Below, piece by piece: positions 18,092 through 39,822 of a stretch of 64,000 nt of DNA (position 1 is its first letter; the number at the start of each line of letters is the position of its first letter). The DNA is from Dictyostelium discoideum (taxonomy: Eukaryota). Below the pieces are notes generated by a model. It did not search any database. It was not told the DNA's origin and worked only from the letters and a program-made list of their open reading frames with translations. Position numbers and translations under genes: made by a program. The stretch lies in NCBI GenBank assembly GCA_000004695.1, contig CM000150.2, positions 928,001 to 992,000 on the forward strand, in the 5' to 3' direction.

Positions 18092-18173
18092 GACATCGTA
18101 GCGAAGTGGTCTAACGCGTTTGACTTGAAATCAAATCTCCTAGGAGGCGCAGGTTCGAACCCTGCCGATGTCG
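18092..18173 (+). tRNA. tRNA-Ser, anticodon UGA, 82 nt with a long variable arm.
   Basis: It folds by hand as follows. Acceptor GACATCG/CGATGTC. D-arm GCG-AAGTGGTCTAA-CGC. Anticodon stem TTTGA/TCAAA with loop CTTGAAA, anticodon TGA. Variable arm TCTCCTAGGAGGC. T-arm GCAGG-TTCGAAC-CCTGC. Discriminator G. Confidence 0.9.
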
Positions 18174-33151: not shown

Positions 33152-33401
33152 ATGATAAAAATAATTTATTTAATTGTATTATTAGTTTTATTATTTAAAA
33201 ATAACCATATTATAATAAAAGCAGATGATTGTCCTTTTCCTCAAATTCCTATAAAAACTCTTTCTGGTACTTGGTATGACGATCCTGATCATGCATCATG
33301 TGGTTTCGAAAAATTAACAGGACCATTAGGACCTGGTAATCGTTTGGTTGTTGCATTAGGTTCCAAATTGTTCGACAAAGGTATTTTTTAAGATTTTAAG
33401 A

Positions 33402-33451
<50 letters not shown>

Positions 33452-34309
33452 AATAATTAATTAATTTTTAATAATTATTTAGGGGCAAATTGTGGTCAAT
33501 GTTATGATGTAACCTCACCATTTAATAATAAAACTATTACAGTAATGGCGTATGTATATATATTATTTTATTGTTATTAAAAATTTTATTTTTAAAATAT
33601 TCAATTTATTAATAATTTTATTATTATTAATTATAGAACTGATAGTTGTCACGATGCAGGAGTAATTATTTTTTTTTTTTTTGAAAAAATATTTGTATAG
33701 AAAATATAAATTAATTTTTTTATTTTTTATTTTTTTTTTAATATTTCAAAGTATTGTCAAGCAGATAATCACTTTGATTTTTATAAAGAAGCATTTGATT
33801 TATTAGGTTCTCCATCAGGTGTAATTAGTGGTAATAGTGGACTATCATATATTAAAGTTCCATGTCCAACCTATGGTAATGTTAAAATTATGATGAAAGA
33901 TGGAAGTAATGAATTTTGGACATCATTTTTAATATTTAATTCTAGAATTTTAATAAAACAAGTCTCAATAAAATTATCAAATAGTCAGCAATTTATTGAC
34001 TTAAATAGACAACCACAAGGAAATTATTGGCCATCTACAAATATGGTATCTGGTGAATTTGAAGTTAGAATTGAATCAATTGGCGGTGAATTCATTTATG
34101 TTAAAATTCCATCAATTGAGAGTAGAAAAATTTATGATACTGGAAACCAATTTTCAGCTGATGGTTGTGTTGGTAATAAATATGATCCATATGCTCCATT
34201 TCAAATTACCTCTAATTCAAATAATATATTACCACCATCATTATATATTATTTTTTTAATTTCAATATTATTTTTAATTATTAATAATATTTTTTCAAAT
34301 AAATATTAA
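33152..34309 (+). CDS. Expansin-like protein, paralogue 1 (DPBB domain plus CBM63-like domain). It has a signal peptide and a C-terminal hydrophobic tail. Exons are 33152..33380, 33483..33549, 33637..33661 and 33752..34309.
   Basis: Signal peptide MIKIIYLIVLLVLLF. Expansin domain-1 motifs are ASCGFEKLTGPLGPG, ALGSKLFDKG|GANCGQCY (a glycine codon split by the intron) and HFDFYKEAFDLL (the HFD motif). Domain 2 has GEFEVRIESIGGEFIYVKI. The C-terminus is LYIIFLISILFLIINNIF. Splice sites are GTATTT, GTATGT and GTAATT with AG acceptors. Confidence 0.8.
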
Positions 34310-34449
34310 AAATAAAAAATGAATTAAAAATAATCGTAAAAATAAATGTAGGTTTTTTTTTTTTTTTTTTTTTTTCTTTTCTTTGCAAAATCTGATCCCT
34401 AAAAAATTTGTTTTTATTTTTCAATAAGCACATTGTTTTTTTATTTCTG

Positions 34450-34484
<35 letters not shown>

Positions 34485-34632
34485 TTGAAAGTAAAAGATT
34501 AAATATCTTGCCAACTAATTTTTTTTATTGTAAAAATAACAACAAAAATGAAACCTTTTCTTTGTGACCACAAAACGAGTTTCAAAATAATTATCTATTT
34601 AAAAAAAAAAACAACTACCCATCGATTATTTG

Positions 34633-34664
<32 letters not shown>

Positions 34665-34845
34665 AAAAATTCTTTTTAATCAAAAACAAAAAATTAGATA
34701 TTTTTTTTTTTCCTACACTTTTATTTTACTTTTTTTTTTTTATTTATTTTATTTTATTTTATTTTATTTTATTTTTATTTTTATTTATTTATATTATTTA
34801 TTTATTTTTTTTATTTTTTTATTTATTTATTATTTTCATTAAAAT

Positions 34846-35926
34846 ATGAAAACTTTTGTATTATTTGTAATATTATTATGTTTAACATTTTTATCAATTT
34901 CTAAAAGTGAAACATGTCCATTTTCACAATCATTAGTTAGTGGTGCATCAGCAACTTACTACACTGATCCAAATGCAGGTAATTGTGGTTATGAAAATCT
35001 CATGGGACCTCTTGGACCTGGTAATTTATTTATTGCTGCCCTTGGCCCAAATCTCTACAATAATGGTATTTTTCTATTTTATTAAAATTTTGAAAAAAAA
35101 GTTAAAGAATAACCACTTAATTACTAACAAAAATTGTTTAAATTATTATTTTTATTATTATATTTTATTTTTAAAAAAGGAAAAAATTGTGGTCAATGTT
35201 TTAACATCTCATCACCTTATACCAATAGATCAGTAGTAATTATGGCGTATTCTATCATTTATTTTATTTTATTTTTTAATTATTAATTAAAAAAGTTTGA
35301 AATAATATTAATATAAAAAAAAAAAAAAAACAATTTTTTTAAAATTAATTAGTACAGATTCATGTCCAGATTCAGGTTATTGTCAAAGATCATCACATTT
35401 TGATCTTTCAACCCAAGCATTTGATGTTTTAGGTGCACAATCGATTGGTGTATTAGAAGGATTAACTTATTATAAGGTACCATGTGGTGTTAATGGTAAT
35501 GTTAAAATTATGATGAAAGATGGTAGTAATGATTATTGGACAGCTTTTTTAATTTATAATTCAAAAGTAACAATTAAAGATGTCTCTGTAAAGATAACTG
35601 GTAAATCTACATATACAAGTTTAACTCAAAGTTCTTACAATTATTGGATTTCTCCAAATATGGTCCCAGGATCATTTGATGTTAGAATTGAATCTGTTGG
35701 TGGTGAATTCATCTATATAACCATTCCAAAGGTTGAAAGTAGAAAACAATATGAAACATCAAGTCAATTCAGTGTTGATGGTTGTGTTGGAACACCCTCT
35801 GGTCCATCTGGTGGTTTAGGTAGTCCATCAACTGGTGCTAGTATTGGTACTCCATCTGATGCTTCATCATTAACATTATATGCATTATTTTCTTTAACAA
35901 TTTTATTTTTAGTAATGTTAAATTAA
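34846..35926 (+). CDS. Expansin-like protein, paralogue 2, in tandem with paralogue 1. Exons are 34846..35065, 35180..35246 and 35353..35926. The C-terminus is a Ser/Gly/Pro-rich linker plus a hydrophobic tail, GPI-anchor-like.
   Basis: It is collinear with paralogue 1: GNCGYENLMGPLGPG, ALGPNLYNNG|GKNCGQCF, TDSCPDSGYCQRSSHFDLSTQAFDVL, GSFDVRIESVGGEFIYITI. It lacks the intron that splits DAG|YCQ in paralogue 1. The tail is GTPSGPSGGLGSPSTGASIGTPSDASSLTLYALFSLTILFLVMLN. Confidence 0.8.
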
Positions 35927-35938
35927 AATTAATAAAGT

Positions 35939-35990
<52 letters not shown>

Positions 35991-36383
35991 TTTTTTGAAT
36001 AATATTTATAACTTGTATATGAAATTATCTATATCGACCATATATCTATTGGTCTTAGATAATATCTTTTCAAATAAAGTATAAAAATAAATAAAAAAAT
36101 ATTAATTTTCATTTTTTTAATAAAATAATTATTTACAATTTATTTTTTTAAATATTTTTTTAAAAAGACTGATATAGATAATTTCAAACACTAAAATTAA
36201 CCTGGTAAATTTTATATTCGGATACAATGGAAAATATCTAAATTTATTTTTTTTTATTTTTTTTTATTTTATTTTTTTTTTTTATTTTTTTAAATTTTCC
36301 CATTGCCAGTTTTTTTATTTTTATTTTATTTTATTTTTTTATTTTTATTTACATTGCTCAAAATACCACCAATTTTCAAAAAA

Positions 36384-37467
36384 ATGAAATTTTTAATTAC
36401 AATTTTATTATTATGTATTATAAATTTTGTAATTGGTGAAAATAATTTATTATCATCATCATCTTCAATAATTCCAAGTGAATGTGGAAATCCAAATTAT
36501 CAAAAATTAGAAAGTTATATTAATGGATTAGTTGGGTCTTATGGATACTGTAACGGTACAGAATGGGGTGTAACAGATTTCAAATCATTTTCAATTTTAA
36601 GTGAAAATTCTCAAAATTCTCAACAAACAGCATCAACAATTAAACTTTGGGTATTATTATCAGTTTTTAAAGATATTGAAGCAGGTTTATACACATTAGA
36701 AAAACAAATTGAATGTTCAACTGGTCTTATCACTGTTGAACAATGTATTGCTTTAATGATTGGTGTATCTGATAATTGTGCAACCTATTCATTAACTGCA
36801 TTAACTAAAATTGAATCTGTAAATTCTGTAAGATATTCATTTTTTTTAAATTTTAAAAAATAAAAAAAAAAATAATAAAATATTAATTATTTATTTATTT
36901 ATTGAAATATAGTTATTTTCAGAATTAGGAATGAATGATAGTCAATTTATTGAATGGTGTTTTTCAACATGTGTTGGATATAGTGATCCATGTCCAAACG
37001 TTTCAGGTGGTTCAGGTAATAATGTGTTAAGTTCACATGATGTTATCCATGGATTAACACTTTTACATCAAGGTTCAATTTTAAATCAAACAATGACAGA
37101 GATGACCTATAAATATTTATTGACTGCACATGGTTGGCAACCAATGATTGGATATTATGTTCCAGCACCAGTTGCCCATAAATCTGGTTGGTTACCAGCT
37201 GATGAAGGTTTTGACCCATTCACTGAAAATGATGAAGCCATTGTTTTCTCTGAATGTGGTGATTATGGTGCTTCAATTATGATCACTAGAGATTGGTCAA
37301 ATCCACAAGAAGATACAATCGCTTTAGAATTGGGTGCTTTAATTGGAAAATATATTTATTGTACAATGGTACCATTTGGTAATACAAATGATGGTGCTTC
37401 ATGTTCTTATATTTTATCACAACCAATTCCAACACCATCTTGTACTTCTTCTTCCTCTTCTTCTTAA
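36384..37467 (+). CDS. Secreted class A serine beta-lactamase-like protein (penicillin-binding-protein fold). Exons are 36384..36827 and 36913..37467.
   Basis: Signal peptide MKFLITILLLCIINFVIG. The catalytic motifs are collinear with TEM-1. ASTIKLWVLLSVFKDIEAG matches [22 protein letters not shown] (S70-x-x-K73). LITVEQCIALMIGVSDNCATYSL matches [22 protein letters not shown] (S130-D-N). ESVNS|LFSELGMNDSQFIEW spans the intron and holds the omega-loop Glu candidate. AHKSGWLP matches ADKSGAG (K234-S/T-G). The intron uses GTAAGA..ATATAG. Codon usage is AT-rich, as in the host. Confidence 0.8.
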
Positions 37468-37757: not shown

Positions 37758-39822
37758 ATGCCAGCAATTAAATCAAATAAATCAACAGCTTCTGCTTTAG
37801 AAACTACATCAAAAACCACTACTAAAGTTGTTTCAACTGGTTTACCATTAGTAAATAAAGAAAAAGCAATTGAAGCAATCAATGCTCTCAATAAATATTT
37901 CGAACAAAAACAATTAACAGAACCATTAAATATTTTAGAAGAAAATAAAAAAATCTATATAACTTTTGAAACTGATAAATACTATCATAATAGTTTATTT
38001 AAACCACATCATATGTAAGTTTTTTTTTATTTTTTATTTTTTTTATTTTTTTATTTTTATTTTTTTTTTTTTTAATTACTAATATTAAATATCTTTTTTT
38101 TTTATATATATATAGAGTTGCACCACATAAAATTGGTGAATTATCAGAAAAAAGAACATTAGTTATTATTGAAGGTGGTAAAGTAGATGCAATTAATTTA
38201 AAGACTAAATTAGTAGATTTAGGATATACTGGTGCAGTTGATGTTCTTTCAATGAAAGAATTCAAAAATGAATATGTCACAAAAGAACAAATTATTAAAG
38301 TTAGAAAAACATATGATGAATTTGTTGTAGATAATTTTTATAAACAAAAAATTCAACATAAATTTGGTAAAGAATTTCAAAATTCACCACAGTATGTATA
38401 ATATTTTTAGAAAAATGATCAATTATTATTATTACTATTATTATTATCAATTCTAATAATATATTATTATTATTATTTTTTTTTTTTTTAAAAAATAGAT
38501 CACCAAAACTTTCAATAATTGATCAAAAGAATCCAGTTGAATTAATTGAAACATTAAATAAACTTGATAGAATGGTATTGGTTAGAAGATTTACTGAATT
38601 ATTTTTCACACTTCCAGTTGGTACATCAGATTTACCAGTTGAGCAACTCATTGAAAATGTTGCATTCATTGTAGGTGAAGTTTCTAATAAATTACCTGAA
38701 AAAATTAATTCAATTCAATCACTTTCAATTGCTGGTTCAGATATTAGTTTACCATTTTATGTAAATGTTAAAGTACCATCAAATCTTTTATTCAATTCTA
38801 AAGAAAATAAAGTTGAATTAAATCCATTAGCAATACAACAAGAAAATAATAATAATAATAATAATACATCAGAAGAATCAACAACAAATACTACTACTAA
38901 TACCAAATCAAATAAAAAGAGAACAGAACCAGAATCAGAAGAAAAAGAACAAGAACAACCAATTAAAGAAAAACCAAATAAAAAATCAAAAACAACACCA
39001 GTTAAAGAAGTTAAATCAACACCAGCTGCTGTTGTTGCTAAACCAACTACACCAGTTAAAGAAGTTAAAGAAACACCAATTAAATCAAAAACACCAGTTA
39101 AAGAATCAACCCCAGCTGTCGTTGCTGCTGCTGTTGCCGCTAAACCAACTACACCAGCTAAACAAGTAAAGGAAACACCAATTAAATCAAAGACTCCAGT
39201 TAAAGAATCAACACCACAAGAAACCACCACTCCATCTAAACCAACTAAAACTCCAACCAAAGCAACAACCACCACCGCCGCCCCAAAAGAAGTAGAATCA
39301 ACTCCAGTTAAAGAAGTCAAACAAACTCCAGCCAAACAAGTTAAAGAAACTCCAGTTAAACAAGTTAAAGAGACACCAGTTAAACAAGTTAAAGAAACTC
39401 CAGTTAAACAAGTTAAAGAAACTCCAGTCAAAGAAGTCAAAGAAACCCCAGTTAAACAAGTTAAAGAAACTCCAGTCAAACAGGTTAAAGAAACAGTAAA
39501 AGAAGTTGCCGCTCCAGTTAAAGAAGTTAAAGAAACCCCAGTAAAAGAAGTTGCTGCTCCAGTTGCTAAGAAAGTTACTAAAAAAGCAGCCGCTGCTCCA
39601 GTTGAAGTTGCTCCAGTTGAAGCTGCACCAGTTAAAAAAGTTGTTAAAAAGGCTACTGTTGCTGCTGCTCCAGTTGAAGCTGCTCCAGTTAAAAAAGTTG
39701 TTAAAAAAGCTGCTGCTGCTCCAGTTGAAGAAGCTGCCCCAGTTAAAAAAGTTGTTAAAAAGACTGCCACCACCGCCACTGCTACTGCTTCAAAATTAAA
39801 AAAACCAATTGAAAAGAAATAA
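37758..39822 (+). CDS. Ribosomal L1-domain-containing nucleolar protein (RSL1D1 / yeast Cic1-like) with a Lys/Pro/Val-rich repeat tail. Exons are 37758..38014, 38116..38391 and 38499..39822.
   Basis: It is collinear with human RSL1D1. SMKEFKNEYVTKEQIIKVRKTYDEFVVDNFYKQKIQHKFGKEF matches [85 protein letters not shown] matches [43 protein letters not shown]. The tail has about 10 tandem KEVKETPVKQV units. Introns are GTAAGT..TATAG and GTATGT..AAATAG. Confidence 0.75.
39290..39530. repeat. 27-bp coding tandem minisatellite (actccagttaaacaagttaaagaaac, about 9 units) that encodes the TPVKQVKE(T) repeats.
   Basis: Direct tandem copies at the DNA level with only synonymous or conservative variation. 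Confidence 0.85.

What the first reader, a model, noticed from the sequence alone, without database searches (positions are those of the whole stretch)
33152..37467. Cluster of three secreted proteins with cell-wall-active folds: two expansin-like genes plus a beta-lactamase-like gene
Three consecutive same-strand genes all encode signal-peptide proteins. Two are DPBB+CBM63 expansin-like proteins, and the DPBB fold is shared with MltA-type lytic transglycosylases and bacterial EXLX1, which binds peptidoglycan. The third is the PBP-fold beta-lactamase-like enzyme. As inference, this could be a small module directed at bacterial peptidoglycan, for prey digestion or for defence against intracellular bacteria. 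The alternative is a developmental cellulose-wall remodelling role, which is the known role of Dictyostelium expansin-like genes. The co-localisation itself is seen in the sequence. The functional link is speculative.
Basis: inference. Interest (0 to 1): 0.6.

Follow-up and report, generated by a model that had tools for sequence, protein, structure and literature searches.

The report
Two expansin genes beside lysosomal PBP-like enzyme
Three neighbouring, already annotated Dictyostelium discoideum genes (expl6, expl1 and a penicillin-binding-protein-like enzyme) really do sit together, but they look like leftovers of an old conserved gene neighbourhood, not a dedicated anti-bacterial module; only the third gene has real, still indirect, support as a digester of bacterial cell wall.

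Summary
Window 33152-37467 carries three same-strand, intron-containing genes identical to annotated D. discoideum AX4 chromosome 1 genes: expl6 (DDB_G0267844), expl1 (DDB_G0267846) and DDB_G0267848, a "beta-lactamase-type transpeptidase fold" protein.

The two ExpL proteins are genuine two-domain expansins. Each has a signal peptide and a C-terminal hydrophobic tail, so they are probably membrane-tethered, not free.

The third protein has the class A beta-lactamase fold (AlphaFold pLDDT 92.7) with invariant SxxK, SDN and KxG motifs. It has no conserved Glu166. Its closest solved structures are PBP-A and LRA-5, which are DD-peptidase-like proteins and not true beta-lactamases. Published proteomics places it among acid lysosomal enzymes in bacteriolytic fractions of vegetative cells.

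An expL gene lies next to this gene in D. purpureum, T. lacteum and H. album, but not in C. fasciculata or A. subglobosum. Unrelated neighbours (mitochondrial RNA polymerase, a ribosomal-L1-domain gene, Maf) are kept about as often.

Expression is mixed. expl1 and the PBP-like gene are expressed in growth and early development. expl6 is late.

Verdict: not a demonstrated module. The PBP-like gene is a plausible, untested lysosomal peptidoglycan DD-peptidase.

The parts
33152..34309 (+). expl6 (DDB_G0267844), expansin-like protein 6, 292 aa. Exons: 33152-33380, 33483-33549, 33637-33661, 33752-34309.
   Evidence: The spliced model translates exactly to Q55G32/XP_647351. Matches: DPBB_1 at E=5e-7 and a weak Expansin_C hit; expansin_EXLX1 at 92 bits, below the 100-bit cut-off. 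It has a signal-like N-terminus and a C-terminal hydrophobic tail at residues 266-289. It is 51% identical to ExpL1.
34846..35926 (+). [quoted passage not shown] Exons: 34846-35065, 35180-35246, 35353-35926.
   Evidence: The spliced model translates exactly to Q55G31. Matches: DPBB_1 at E=2e-11; expansin_EXLX1 at 122.6 bits, above the cut-off. The best solved relatives are microbial expansins (7wvr at E=3e-22, YoaJ/EXLX1 at 6e-13). The EXLX1 residues T12, D71, D82 and the aromatic positions W125/W126/Y157 are matched by T, D, D and Y/W/Y. The C-terminus looks like a GPI signal.
36384..37467 (+). DDB_G0267848 (Q55G30), a PBP-A/LRA-5-like class-A-fold serine hydrolase, 332 aa. Exons: 36384-36827, 36913-37467.
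   Evidence: The spliced model translates exactly to XP_647353. Pfam Beta-lactamase2 matches at E=4e-35. NCBIfam bla_class_A gives only 23.9 bits against a cut-off of 200. The AlphaFold model has pLDDT 92.7. Foldseek top hits are 4ewf, LRA-5 and PBP-A. The protein has a signal peptide, 4 N-glycosylation sequons, a pI near 4.3 and 13 Cys.
36633..36644 (+). Codons for the S84-T-I-K87 active-site motif (nucleophilic Ser and general-base Lys).
   Evidence: S84 and K87 are invariant in 8 family members and nearly invariant across 47 members plus bacterial relatives.
36768..36776 (+). Codons for the S129-D-N131 motif.
   Evidence: Invariant in the family. It aligns with the TEM-1 SDN motif.
37180..37188 (+). 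Codons for the K238-S-G240 motif on the beta-3 strand. Most orthologues have K-Q-G.
   Evidence: K238 and G240 are invariant across all 47 aligned sequences. The motif is followed by a family-specific loop, WLPADEGF-PFTENDEA, with invariant residues.

Best explanation
The locus holds three separately transcribed neighbouring genes that sit inside an ancient dictyostelid syntenic block. It is not a dedicated functional module.

expl6 and expl1 are old paralogues of the expansin family (a DPBB domain plus a CBM63-like domain). They are exported and probably held at the membrane by a C-terminal GPI or transmembrane tail. They most likely bind and loosen cellulose-type polysaccharide. expl6 acts late in development and expl1 in growth and early development.

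DDB_G0267848 is a soluble, acidic, disulfide-rich glycoprotein with the class A beta-lactamase/PBP-A fold. It keeps the acylation machinery (Ser84/Lys87, Ser129-Asp-Asn, Lys238-x-Gly) but has no Glu166-type deacylation base. It is therefore most likely not a beta-lactamase. It is more likely a DD-peptidase-type acyl-serine hydrolase delivered to lysosomes and phagolysosomes of feeding amoebae, where it would trim D-Ala-D-Ala ends or cut cross-links of ingested peptidoglycan.

Shown here: gene identities, folds, motifs, synteny, protein-level stage profile, and presence in lysosomal-type fractions. Inferred: the substrate (peptidoglycan stem peptides), the lysosomal site of action, and the GPI anchoring of the ExpL proteins.
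For: - Identity with annotated genes.
- Domains.
- Expansin signature residues.
- C-terminal hydrophobic tails on the ExpL proteins only.
- PBP-fold family: invariant SxxK, SDN and KxG motifs and 10 invariant Cys, with no conserved acidic residue at either candidate Glu166 position (C164 or C175, depending on the alignment).
- AlphaFold pLDDT 92.7. Nearest solved structures are 4ewf, LRA-5 and PBP-A.
- LRA-5 lacks useful beta-lactamase activity because it lacks Glu166 (PMC12777564).
- PBP-A is a DD-carboxy/endopeptidase that damages E. coli peptidoglycan, more so at acid pH (PMC11189452).
- Some of the nearest bacterial relatives are fused to peptidoglycan peptidase domains, NlpC/P60 and Peptidase_M14.
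- Q55G30 is one of about 147 proteins from axenic vegetative cells that bind anion-exchange resin at acid pH. It elutes at 200-300 mM NaCl with cathepsins, Tpp1, phospholipases B, the Bad family and BpiC, in bacteriolytic fractions (PMC11520349).
- Its protein level is high in vegetative and aggregation stages (PMC12821622).
- It is single-copy and conserved in all dictyostelid groups sampled.
- Synteny control: the neighbours kept near the gene are expL in 3 of 5 species, the ribosomal-L1-domain gene in 3 of 5, mitochondrial RNA polymerase in 2 of 5 and orf1197 in 2 of 5.
- expl6 is late while expl1 peaks at 0 h (PMC4408306 Table S2).
Against: - No enzyme assay exists. The substrate is inferred from distant relatives (about 17-20% identity to PBP-A and LRA-5).
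- Co-fractionation with bacteriolytic activity is shared by more than 100 other proteins.
- The gene is down-regulated about 2.4-fold on exposure to K. pneumoniae.
- expl1 and the PBP-like gene do resemble each other in expression: growth/early stage, protein peak at aggregation, and both down on Klebsiella. expL-PBP adjacency also survives in three taxon groups. Some functional coupling of that pair therefore cannot be excluded.
- Absence of ExpL proteins from the lysosomal list may only reflect their membrane anchoring.
- expl1 expression in cellulose-free vegetative cells is not explained by a cellulose role.
Confidence: 0.55

Rival explanations
1. First reader's module. ExpL1 and ExpL6 bind and loosen bacterial peptidoglycan in the way EXLX1 binds it, and present it to the neighbouring PBP-fold peptidase. 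The three genes would then be kept together as an anti-bacterial or prey-digestion unit.
For: - EXLX1 binds peptidoglycan avidly, and its loss reduces autolysis (PMC5072189).
- expL-PBP adjacency is found in groups 2, 3 and 4, and in the merged gene model P0050.
- expl1 is expressed in vegetative cells, which make no cellulose.
- ExpL1 and the PBP-like protein both peak at aggregation, and both fall on Klebsiella exposure.
Against: - Adjacency is no more conserved than for unrelated housekeeping neighbours.
- It is lost in C. fasciculata and A. subglobosum and interrupted in D. purpureum.
- expl6 is late-developmental.
- The ExpL proteins are absent from the lysosomal/bacteriolytic protein list.
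- EXLX1 does not hydrolyse peptidoglycan.
- Dictyostelium ExpL3 binds cellulose (Avicel), and ExpL3 and ExpL7 affect morphogenesis (PMC4408306).
- The cellulose-binding aromatic triad is conserved in ExpL1.
Confidence: 0.1
2. All three genes serve the amoeba's own developmental extracellular matrix. The ExpL proteins would loosen cellulose in slime sheath, stalk or spore coat, and the PBP-fold enzyme would process a matrix or wall component or a signalling peptide during development.
For: - Expansin-like genes are known developmental and morphogenesis genes.
- The PBP-like protein rises again at culmination, at +2.5 log2 relative to the other stages.
- expl6 is late and expl1 is prestalk-enriched.
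Against: - The PBP-like protein is highest in vegetative and aggregation stages and lowest in mound and fruiting body.
- It is abundant in extracts of axenic growing cells, together with lysosomal hydrolases.
- No known member of this fold acts on cellulose or on eukaryotic matrix.
- The family also occurs in the protosteloid amoeba Clastostelium, outside Dictyostelia.
Confidence: 0.1
3. DDB_G0267848 is a lysosomal acyl-serine hydrolase for a non-peptidoglycan substrate, such as another amide or ester, a D-amino-acid peptide or a bacterial lipid or metabolite. Its position next to the expL genes is accidental.
For: - The catalytic triad motifs are intact.
- It keeps lysosomal company.
- It is very distant from any characterised enzyme: there is a gap from the family proper (E below 1e-97) to bacterial relatives at E around 1e-25.
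- It has family-specific features: an insertion after KxG, a Cys-rich omega loop, and a deletion between SxxK and SDN.
Against: - The closest characterised structural neighbours act on D-Ala-D-Ala or beta-lactams.
- Bacterial relatives are fused to murein peptidase domains.
- A bacterivore has an obvious supply of peptidoglycan.
Confidence: 0.2
4. DDB_G0267848 is a true beta-lactamase that destroys beta-lactam antibiotics in the soil environment or in ingested material.
For: - Pfam Beta-lactamase2 match and the class A fold.
- D. discoideum itself has an Asp (D173) in the omega-loop region.
Against: - No conserved Glu166 equivalent. D173 is replaced by S, N or T in orthologues.
- The NCBIfam class A model gives 23.9 bits against a cut-off of 200.
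- The nearest structures, LRA-5 and PBP-A, lack meaningful beta-lactamase activity for exactly this reason.
- An amoeba has no beta-lactam target to protect.
Confidence: 0.05

Closest known systems
PBP-A (Tll2115) of Thermosynechococcus elongatus and the metagenomic 'beta-lactamase precursor' LRA-5; also 4ewf from Sphaerobacter
   Same: They share the class A beta-lactamase fold, the SxxK, SDN and K(T/S)G motifs, and the absence of the Glu166 general base. They are the top Foldseek and sequence hits. PBP-A is a DD-carboxy/endopeptidase that is more promiscuous at acid pH.
   Different: - The window gene is eukaryotic and intron-containing, and its product is secretory or lysosomal.
- Identity is only about 17-20%.
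- It has 10 invariant cysteines and a Cys-rich omega loop.
- It has a deletion of about 16 residues between SxxK and SDN, and an insertion after KxG (WLPADEGFxPFTENDEA).
- Most orthologues have KQG instead of KTG or KSG.
- Its activity is untested.
Bacterial and microbial expansins (EXLX1/YoaJ of B. subtilis, 7wvr EXLX1, Clavibacter and Pectobacterium expansins) and the Dictyostelium ExpL3/ExpL7 paralogues
   Same: They share the two-domain DPBB plus CBM63 architecture, the conserved T12/D71/D82 equivalents and the aromatic binding strip. ExpL3 binds Avicel, and ExpL3 and ExpL7 influence morphogenesis.
   Different: - ExpL1 and ExpL6 carry Cys-rich D1 domains and C-terminal hydrophobic (GPI-like) tails.
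- ExpL1 is expressed in vegetative, cellulose-free cells.
- ExpL6 scores below the NCBIfam cut-off and has Gly at the Y157 position.
- Peptidoglycan binding has not been tested for any ExpL protein.
Other Dictyostelium candidates for peptidoglycan digestion: LACTB-family PBP-like proteins, and the Aly lysozymes and Bad bacteriolytic proteins
   Same: Penicillin-binding-fold or lytic proteins have been proposed to help a bacterivore digest murein (PMC2266909). Bad proteins co-fractionate with Q55G30.
   Different: LACTB-type proteins belong to the class C / R61-like branch (Pfam Beta-lactamase PF00144), not to the class A/PBP-A branch. Q55G30 is not discussed in the main text of the papers I checked.

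Membership tests
Expansin (two-domain EXLX type) | N-terminal DPBB (D1) domain with the conserved Thr/Asp/Asp groove residues (EXLX1 T12, D71, D82; the 'HFD' motif) | tested here: met
   DPBB_1 hits are above the Pfam cut-off for both proteins. T, D and HFD align with EXLX1 T12, D71 and D82 in ExpL1, and the same residues are present in ExpL6.
Expansin (two-domain EXLX type) | C-terminal CBM63-like D2 domain with a linear aromatic strip (EXLX1 W125, W126, Y157) | tested here: met
   ExpL1 has Y, W and Y at the three positions. ExpL6 has F and W, then Gly at the third position with an adjacent Y-W. The Expansin_C Pfam hits are below the gathering score (16-19 bits against 24.6), so this is met clearly for ExpL1 and only partly for ExpL6.
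Expansin (two-domain EXLX type) | Curated family score (NCBIfam NF041144 expansin_EXLX1, cut-off 100 bits) | tested here: inconclusive
   ExpL1 scores 122.6 bits and passes. ExpL6 scores 92.1 bits and falls just below. The model is built for prokaryotic proteins.
Expansin (two-domain EXLX type) | Non-hydrolytic wall loosening and polysaccharide binding | not testable with these tools
   This needs creep/extension and binding assays. Only the paralogue ExpL3 has been shown to bind Avicel (PMC4408306).
Class A beta-lactamase (true beta-lactam hydrolase) | Ser70-x-x-Lys73, Ser130-Asp-Asn132 and Lys234-Thr/Ser-Gly236 motifs | tested here: met
   S84-T-I-K87, S129-D-N131 and K238-S-G240 are invariant in the family.
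Class A beta-lactamase (true beta-lactam hydrolase) | Glu166 general base on the omega loop, needed for deacylation | tested here: not met
   The aligned position is an invariant Cys: C164 in the MAFFT alignment with TEM-1, or C175 via PBP-A L158. The only nearby acidic residue, D173, is S, N or T in orthologues.
Class A beta-lactamase (true beta-lactam hydrolase) | Curated family score (NCBIfam NF033103 bla_class_A, cut-off 200 bits) | tested here: not met
   23.9 bits.
PBP-A / Beta-lactamase2 (PF13354) serine hydrolases | Pfam gathering score and the class A fold | tested here: met
   121.4 bits against a cut-off of 22. The AlphaFold model has pLDDT 92.7. Foldseek gives probability 1.00 to 4ewf, LRA-5 and PBP-A, with target-normalised TM-scores of 0.70-0.84.
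PBP-A / Beta-lactamase2 (PF13354) serine hydrolases | DD-carboxypeptidase/endopeptidase activity and penicillin binding | not testable with these tools
   Shown only for PBP-A itself (PMC11189452).
Functional gene cluster / module | Linkage conserved beyond the background synteny of the region | tested here: not met
   expL is adjacent to the PBP-like gene in 3 of 5 other genomes. Unrelated neighbours are kept at similar rates: ribosomal-L1-domain gene 3 of 5, mitochondrial RNA polymerase 2 of 5, orf1197 2 of 5.
Functional gene cluster / module | Shared expression programme of all members | tested here: not met
   expl1 mRNA peaks at 0 h. expl6 peaks at 8 h (flagged uncertain) and 20 h, with high late levels. 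The PBP-like protein is high in vegetative and aggregation stages, and ExpL1 protein peaks at aggregation. Only the expl1/PBP-like pair is similar. No mRNA time course for DDB_G0267848 could be reached.
Functional gene cluster / module | Same cellular compartment | tested here: inconclusive
   Q55G30 is in the soluble acid-hydrolase fractions, and no ExpL protein is listed there. Membrane-anchored ExpL proteins might simply be missed by that preparation.

The most novel reading that the evidence does not exclude
Dictyostelids and some other bacterivorous amoebae carry an ancient, eukaryote-adapted PBP-A-type DD-peptidase that works in acid phagolysosomes to dismantle prey peptidoglycan peptides. 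The growth-phase, membrane-tethered expansin ExpL1 encoded next door binds the glycan strands of ingested sacculi and acts with it. This would give expansins a peptidoglycan-directed role in a eukaryote and would explain why expl1 is expressed in cells that make no cellulose.
Probability: 0.1. Interest if true: 0.7.

Novelty: new member of a known kind. Interest (0 to 1): 0.3.

Why it matters
How amoebae, and by extension phagocytes, take apart bacterial cell walls after lysozyme action is poorly defined. A lysosomal class-A-fold DD-peptidase would add a new enzyme class to the eukaryotic digestion toolkit. It would also be a rare eukaryotic relative of the PBP-A/LRA-5 'pre-beta-lactamase' branch, which is relevant to beta-lactamase evolution. 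The expansin part matters less. expl1 and expl6 are named genes, and their neighbourhood with the PBP-like gene is explained by ordinary conserved synteny. The one loose end is why expl1 is expressed in vegetative, cellulose-free cells.

Tried and rejected
- **Gene fusion as proof of a functional link.** A 695-aa EukProt protein (P0050) combines an expansin with this PBP-like domain. The junction runs straight from the expansin's C-terminal hydrophobic tail into residue ~45 of the PBP-like protein. The PBP-like signal peptide and the invariant Cys34 are missing. I treat it as a merged gene model of two adjacent genes, so it is evidence for adjacency only.
- **Recent bacterial transfer of the PBP-like gene.** Rejected. 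The gene has an intron. Single-copy orthologues exist in all dictyostelid groups sampled. An exhaustive profile search found only 5 cluster representatives below 1e-30, then a gap to bacterial proteins at about 1e-25.
- **Induction by bacteria as a test.** Both expl1 and the PBP-like gene are down after K. pneumoniae exposure. expl1 is also down after 2 h on E. coli. The lysozyme alyA behaves the same way, and the authors state that such regulation does not predict function. The test is uninformative.
- **Odd locus-tag gaps in other strains**, for example ACTFIR_005421 versus 005433. I checked the contig, and the gene order is identical to AX4.
- **First AlphaFold run.** With 8 sequences the model was poor (pLDDT 68). 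It was replaced by a 47-sequence run.
- **AFDB Foldseek** was unavailable.
- **Other features in the region.** No tRNA or Rfam RNA was found in 30-41 kb. The inverted-repeat scan was swamped by poly-A/T tracts.
- **Expansin tree.** The neighbour-joining tree is too sparsely sampled outside group 4 to prove orthology of the adjacent expL genes. It only shows they are not close to the other group-4 paralogues.
- **Literature search by gene ID.** No paper in the library mentions DDB_G0267844, DDB_G0267846 or DDB_G0267848 in its main text.

Full report
**What is there**

The window is extremely AT-rich, with short AT-rich introns. By enumerating GT/AG boundaries I obtained one clean spliced model per gene:
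- Gene 1: exons 33152-33380, 33483-33549, 33637-33661 and 33752-34309 (292 aa).
- Gene 2: exons 34846-35065, 35180-35246 and 35353-35926 (286 aa).
- Gene 3: exons 36384-36827 and 36913-37467 (332 aa).

[quoted passage not shown] All lie on a 4.92-Mb contig, which from my own knowledge is chromosome 1. The dictyBase IDs are DDB_G0267844, DDB_G0267846 and DDB_G0267848.

**The two expansin-like proteins**

- Both hit Pfam DPBB_1 above threshold, and Expansin_C weakly.
- ExpL1 passes the NCBIfam EXLX1 model at 122.6 bits. ExpL6 falls just short at 92.1 bits against a cut-off of 100.
- The best solved relatives of ExpL1 are microbial expansins: 7wvr at E=3e-22, and B. subtilis YoaJ/EXLX1 at 6e-13.
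- In the YoaJ alignment the functionally important residues T12, D71 and D82 are conserved. The cellulose-binding aromatic positions W125, W126 and Y157 are matched by Y, W and Y.
- ExpL6 keeps the D1 residues but has Gly at the third aromatic position.
- Both proteins have an N-terminal signal-like segment and a hydrophobic stretch at the extreme C-terminus. The adjacent orthologues in T. lacteum and H. album have the same tail. That points to GPI or membrane anchoring, which is an inference.
- The two proteins are only 51% identical. ExpL1 is closer to paralogues elsewhere in the genome, so the duplication is old.

**The third protein**

- Pfam Beta-lactamase2 matches at E=4e-35. The curated class A beta-lactamase model gives only 23.9 bits against a cut-off of 200.
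- An alignment of eight family members shows invariant S84-x-x-K87, S129-D-N131, K238-x-G240 and ten invariant cysteines.
- With a 47-sequence alignment AlphaFold gives pLDDT 92.7.
- The Foldseek top hits are the Sphaerobacter protein 4ewf, LRA-5 and PBP-A, followed by ordinary class A enzymes.
The nearby D173 of D. discoideum is S, N or T in orthologues.
- Wild-type LRA-5 has biologically insignificant beta-lactamase activity because it lacks Glu166 (PMC12777564).
- PBP-A is a DD-carboxypeptidase/endopeptidase whose promiscuous attack on E. coli peptidoglycan is much stronger at acid pH (PMC11189452).

So "beta-lactamase-like" is better stated as [quoted passage not shown]. The protein is soluble (it has no C-terminal anchor) and acidic (pI about 4.3), with 4 N-glycosylation sequons.

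**Distribution and origin of the PBP-like family**

- It is single-copy in D. discoideum. Orthologues exist in D. purpureum, T. lacteum, C. fasciculata, H. album and A. subglobosum, at 75-56% identity.
- More distant members occur in the protosteloid amoeba Clastostelium recurvatum and in a Gefionella okellyi transcriptome.
- An exhaustive profile search of 1.8 billion representatives found only five cluster representatives below 1e-30. There is then a gap to bacterial Beta-lactamase2 proteins at about 1e-25.
- Some of those bacterial relatives are fused to NlpC/P60 or Peptidase_M14, which are murein peptidase domains.
- This is an old, eukaryote-adapted family and not a recent transfer.

**Is the linkage conserved, and does that mean anything?**

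| Species | Arrangement near the PBP-like gene |
|---|---|
| D. purpureum | expL, expL, an inserted EF-G-like gene on the other strand, PBP-like, ribosomal-L1-domain gene, Maf |
| T. lacteum | mitochondrial RNA polymerase ... expL, PBP-like, ribosomal-L1-domain gene |
| H. album | PBP-like followed by a convergent expL (PPL_01768) |
| C. fasciculata | ribosomal-L1-domain gene and mitochondrial RNA polymerase flank the gene; no expL within 10 kb |
| A. subglobosum | the neighbour is the orf1197 homologue; no expL within 10 kb |

Close relatives (D. firmibasis, D. dimigraforme, D. citrinum and other D. discoideum strains) keep the trio.

The AX4 window itself reads: mitochondrial RNA polymerase, orf1197, NmrA, expl6, expl1, PBP-like, ribosomal-L1-domain gene, Maf, RhoGEF.

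However, the control matters. Unrelated housekeeping neighbours are retained about as often as expL. The adjacency is adequately explained by slow decay of an ancestral block.

A 695-aa EukProt model that joins an expansin to this PBP-like domain looked like a Rosetta-stone fusion. Its junction goes from the expansin's hydrophobic tail directly into residue ~45 of the PBP-like protein, skipping the signal peptide and the invariant Cys34. It is most likely two adjacent genes merged by the gene predictor.

**Expression and localisation from the literature**

- RNA-seq summarised by Kawata et al.: expl1 peaks at 0 h, then declines, and is prestalk-enriched. expl6 peaks at 8 h (flagged uncertain) and 20 h, with high late levels (PMC4408306 Table S2).
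- Life-cycle proteome, log2 relative to the other stages. DDB_G0267848: vegetative +3.6, aggregation +4.5, mound -6.2, culmination +2.5, fruiting body -4.3. ExpL1: aggregation +4.2, otherwise near zero or lower. ExpL6 was not found (PMC12821622).
- Exposure to K. pneumoniae lowers DDB_G0267848 (logFC -1.28) and expl1 (-2.47). It also lowers the lysozyme alyA (-1.41). The authors conclude that such changes do not predict a role in killing (PMC7078664).
- expl1 also drops after 2 h on E. coli (PMC2443395).
- Most telling is Table S2 of the mSphere 2024 study of bacteriolytic extracts (PMC11520349). Q55G30/DDB_G0267848 is among the roughly 147 proteins from axenic vegetative cells that bind an anion-exchange resin at acid pH. 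Its spectral counts are 12, 10 and 7 at 200, 250 and 300 mM NaCl, and it recurs after size exclusion. It sits alongside cathepsins, Tpp1, phospholipases B, BpiC and Bad proteins. [quoted passage not shown]
- No ExpL protein is in that list.

**Interpretation**

The best-supported reading is three independent genes. The PBP-like protein is a vegetative-stage, lysosomal-type acyl-serine hydrolase. By fold, motifs, lack of Glu166, nearest characterised relatives and cellular company, it is most plausibly a DD-peptidase acting on ingested peptidoglycan. I put this at about 45-50% for the substrate. The rest of the probability goes mostly to "other lysosomal substrate".

The ExpL proteins are membrane-tethered expansins whose family is documented to bind cellulose and to affect morphogenesis.

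The three-gene peptidoglycan module is not supported. Linkage is not special, expl6 has a different programme, and the predicted destinations differ.

A weaker version remains possible, at about 10%, in which ExpL1 cooperates with the PBP-like enzyme. It would explain the otherwise odd vegetative expression of expl1. EXLX1 does bind peptidoglycan avidly without hydrolysing it.

**Novelty and score**

The genes and their order are already in public annotation, and expl1 and expl6 are named. What is not in the papers I could search is any treatment of DDB_G0267848: there were no main-text hits for its ID. It is a new, eukaryotic member of the PBP-A/LRA-5 kind. I rate interest at 0.3. The clustering is ordinary, and the third gene is a reasonable candidate worth a bench test.

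Noticed in passing
window 36021-36035 (+) and 36171-36185 (-): A perfect 15-bp inverted repeat, GAAATTATCTATATC (16 bp with the preceding T). The arms are 135 bp apart in the expl1-to-PBP-like intergenic region, about 200 bp upstream of the PBP-like ATG. Only 0.03 matches are expected by chance in the window. It could be a regulatory palindrome or the ends of a small element.
   Followed up: partly
P0050 (EukProt gene2732-3391_t, no locus): A 695-aa gene model joins a complete expansin (signal peptide, DPBB, Expansin_C, Ser/Thr linker, hydrophobic tail) to the PBP-like domain. It probably represents two adjacent genes merged by the predictor. It still shows same-strand adjacency in a further species, probably a dictyostelid.
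   Followed up: partly
P0051 (Gefionella okellyi transcriptome): A 319-aa member of the PBP-like family, with its own signal peptide, appears in a malawimonad transcriptome (profile E=3e-108). This is either contamination or a sign that the family reaches beyond Amoebozoa.
   Followed up: no
P0052 and P0056 (bacterial metagenome proteins): Some of the nearest bacterial relatives of the PBP-like family are fused to NlpC/P60 or to Peptidase_M14 domains, both of which are typical murein peptide hydrolases.
   Followed up: no
L001 7115-9652 (-), D. purpureum: An EF-G-like GTPase gene sits on the opposite strand between the expL pair and the PBP-like gene in D. purpureum. It is absent from that position in D. 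discoideum.
   Followed up: no
window 37758-39822 (+): The downstream gene corresponds to the ribosomal-L1-domain genes that flank the PBP-like gene in other species. Its long exon encodes a Lys/Glu/Pro/Thr/Val-rich tail with many near-identical VKETPVKQ-type repeats. The opposite strand carries a long spurious ORF.
   Followed up: no
window 34846-35926 (expl1): expl1 mRNA peaks in vegetative cells, which make no cellulose, unlike the other expL genes (PMC4408306 Table S2). No explanation so far accounts for this.
   Followed up: partly
window 18092-18173 (+): A tRNA-Ser (anticodon TGA) is the only tRNA found in the window.
   Followed up: no
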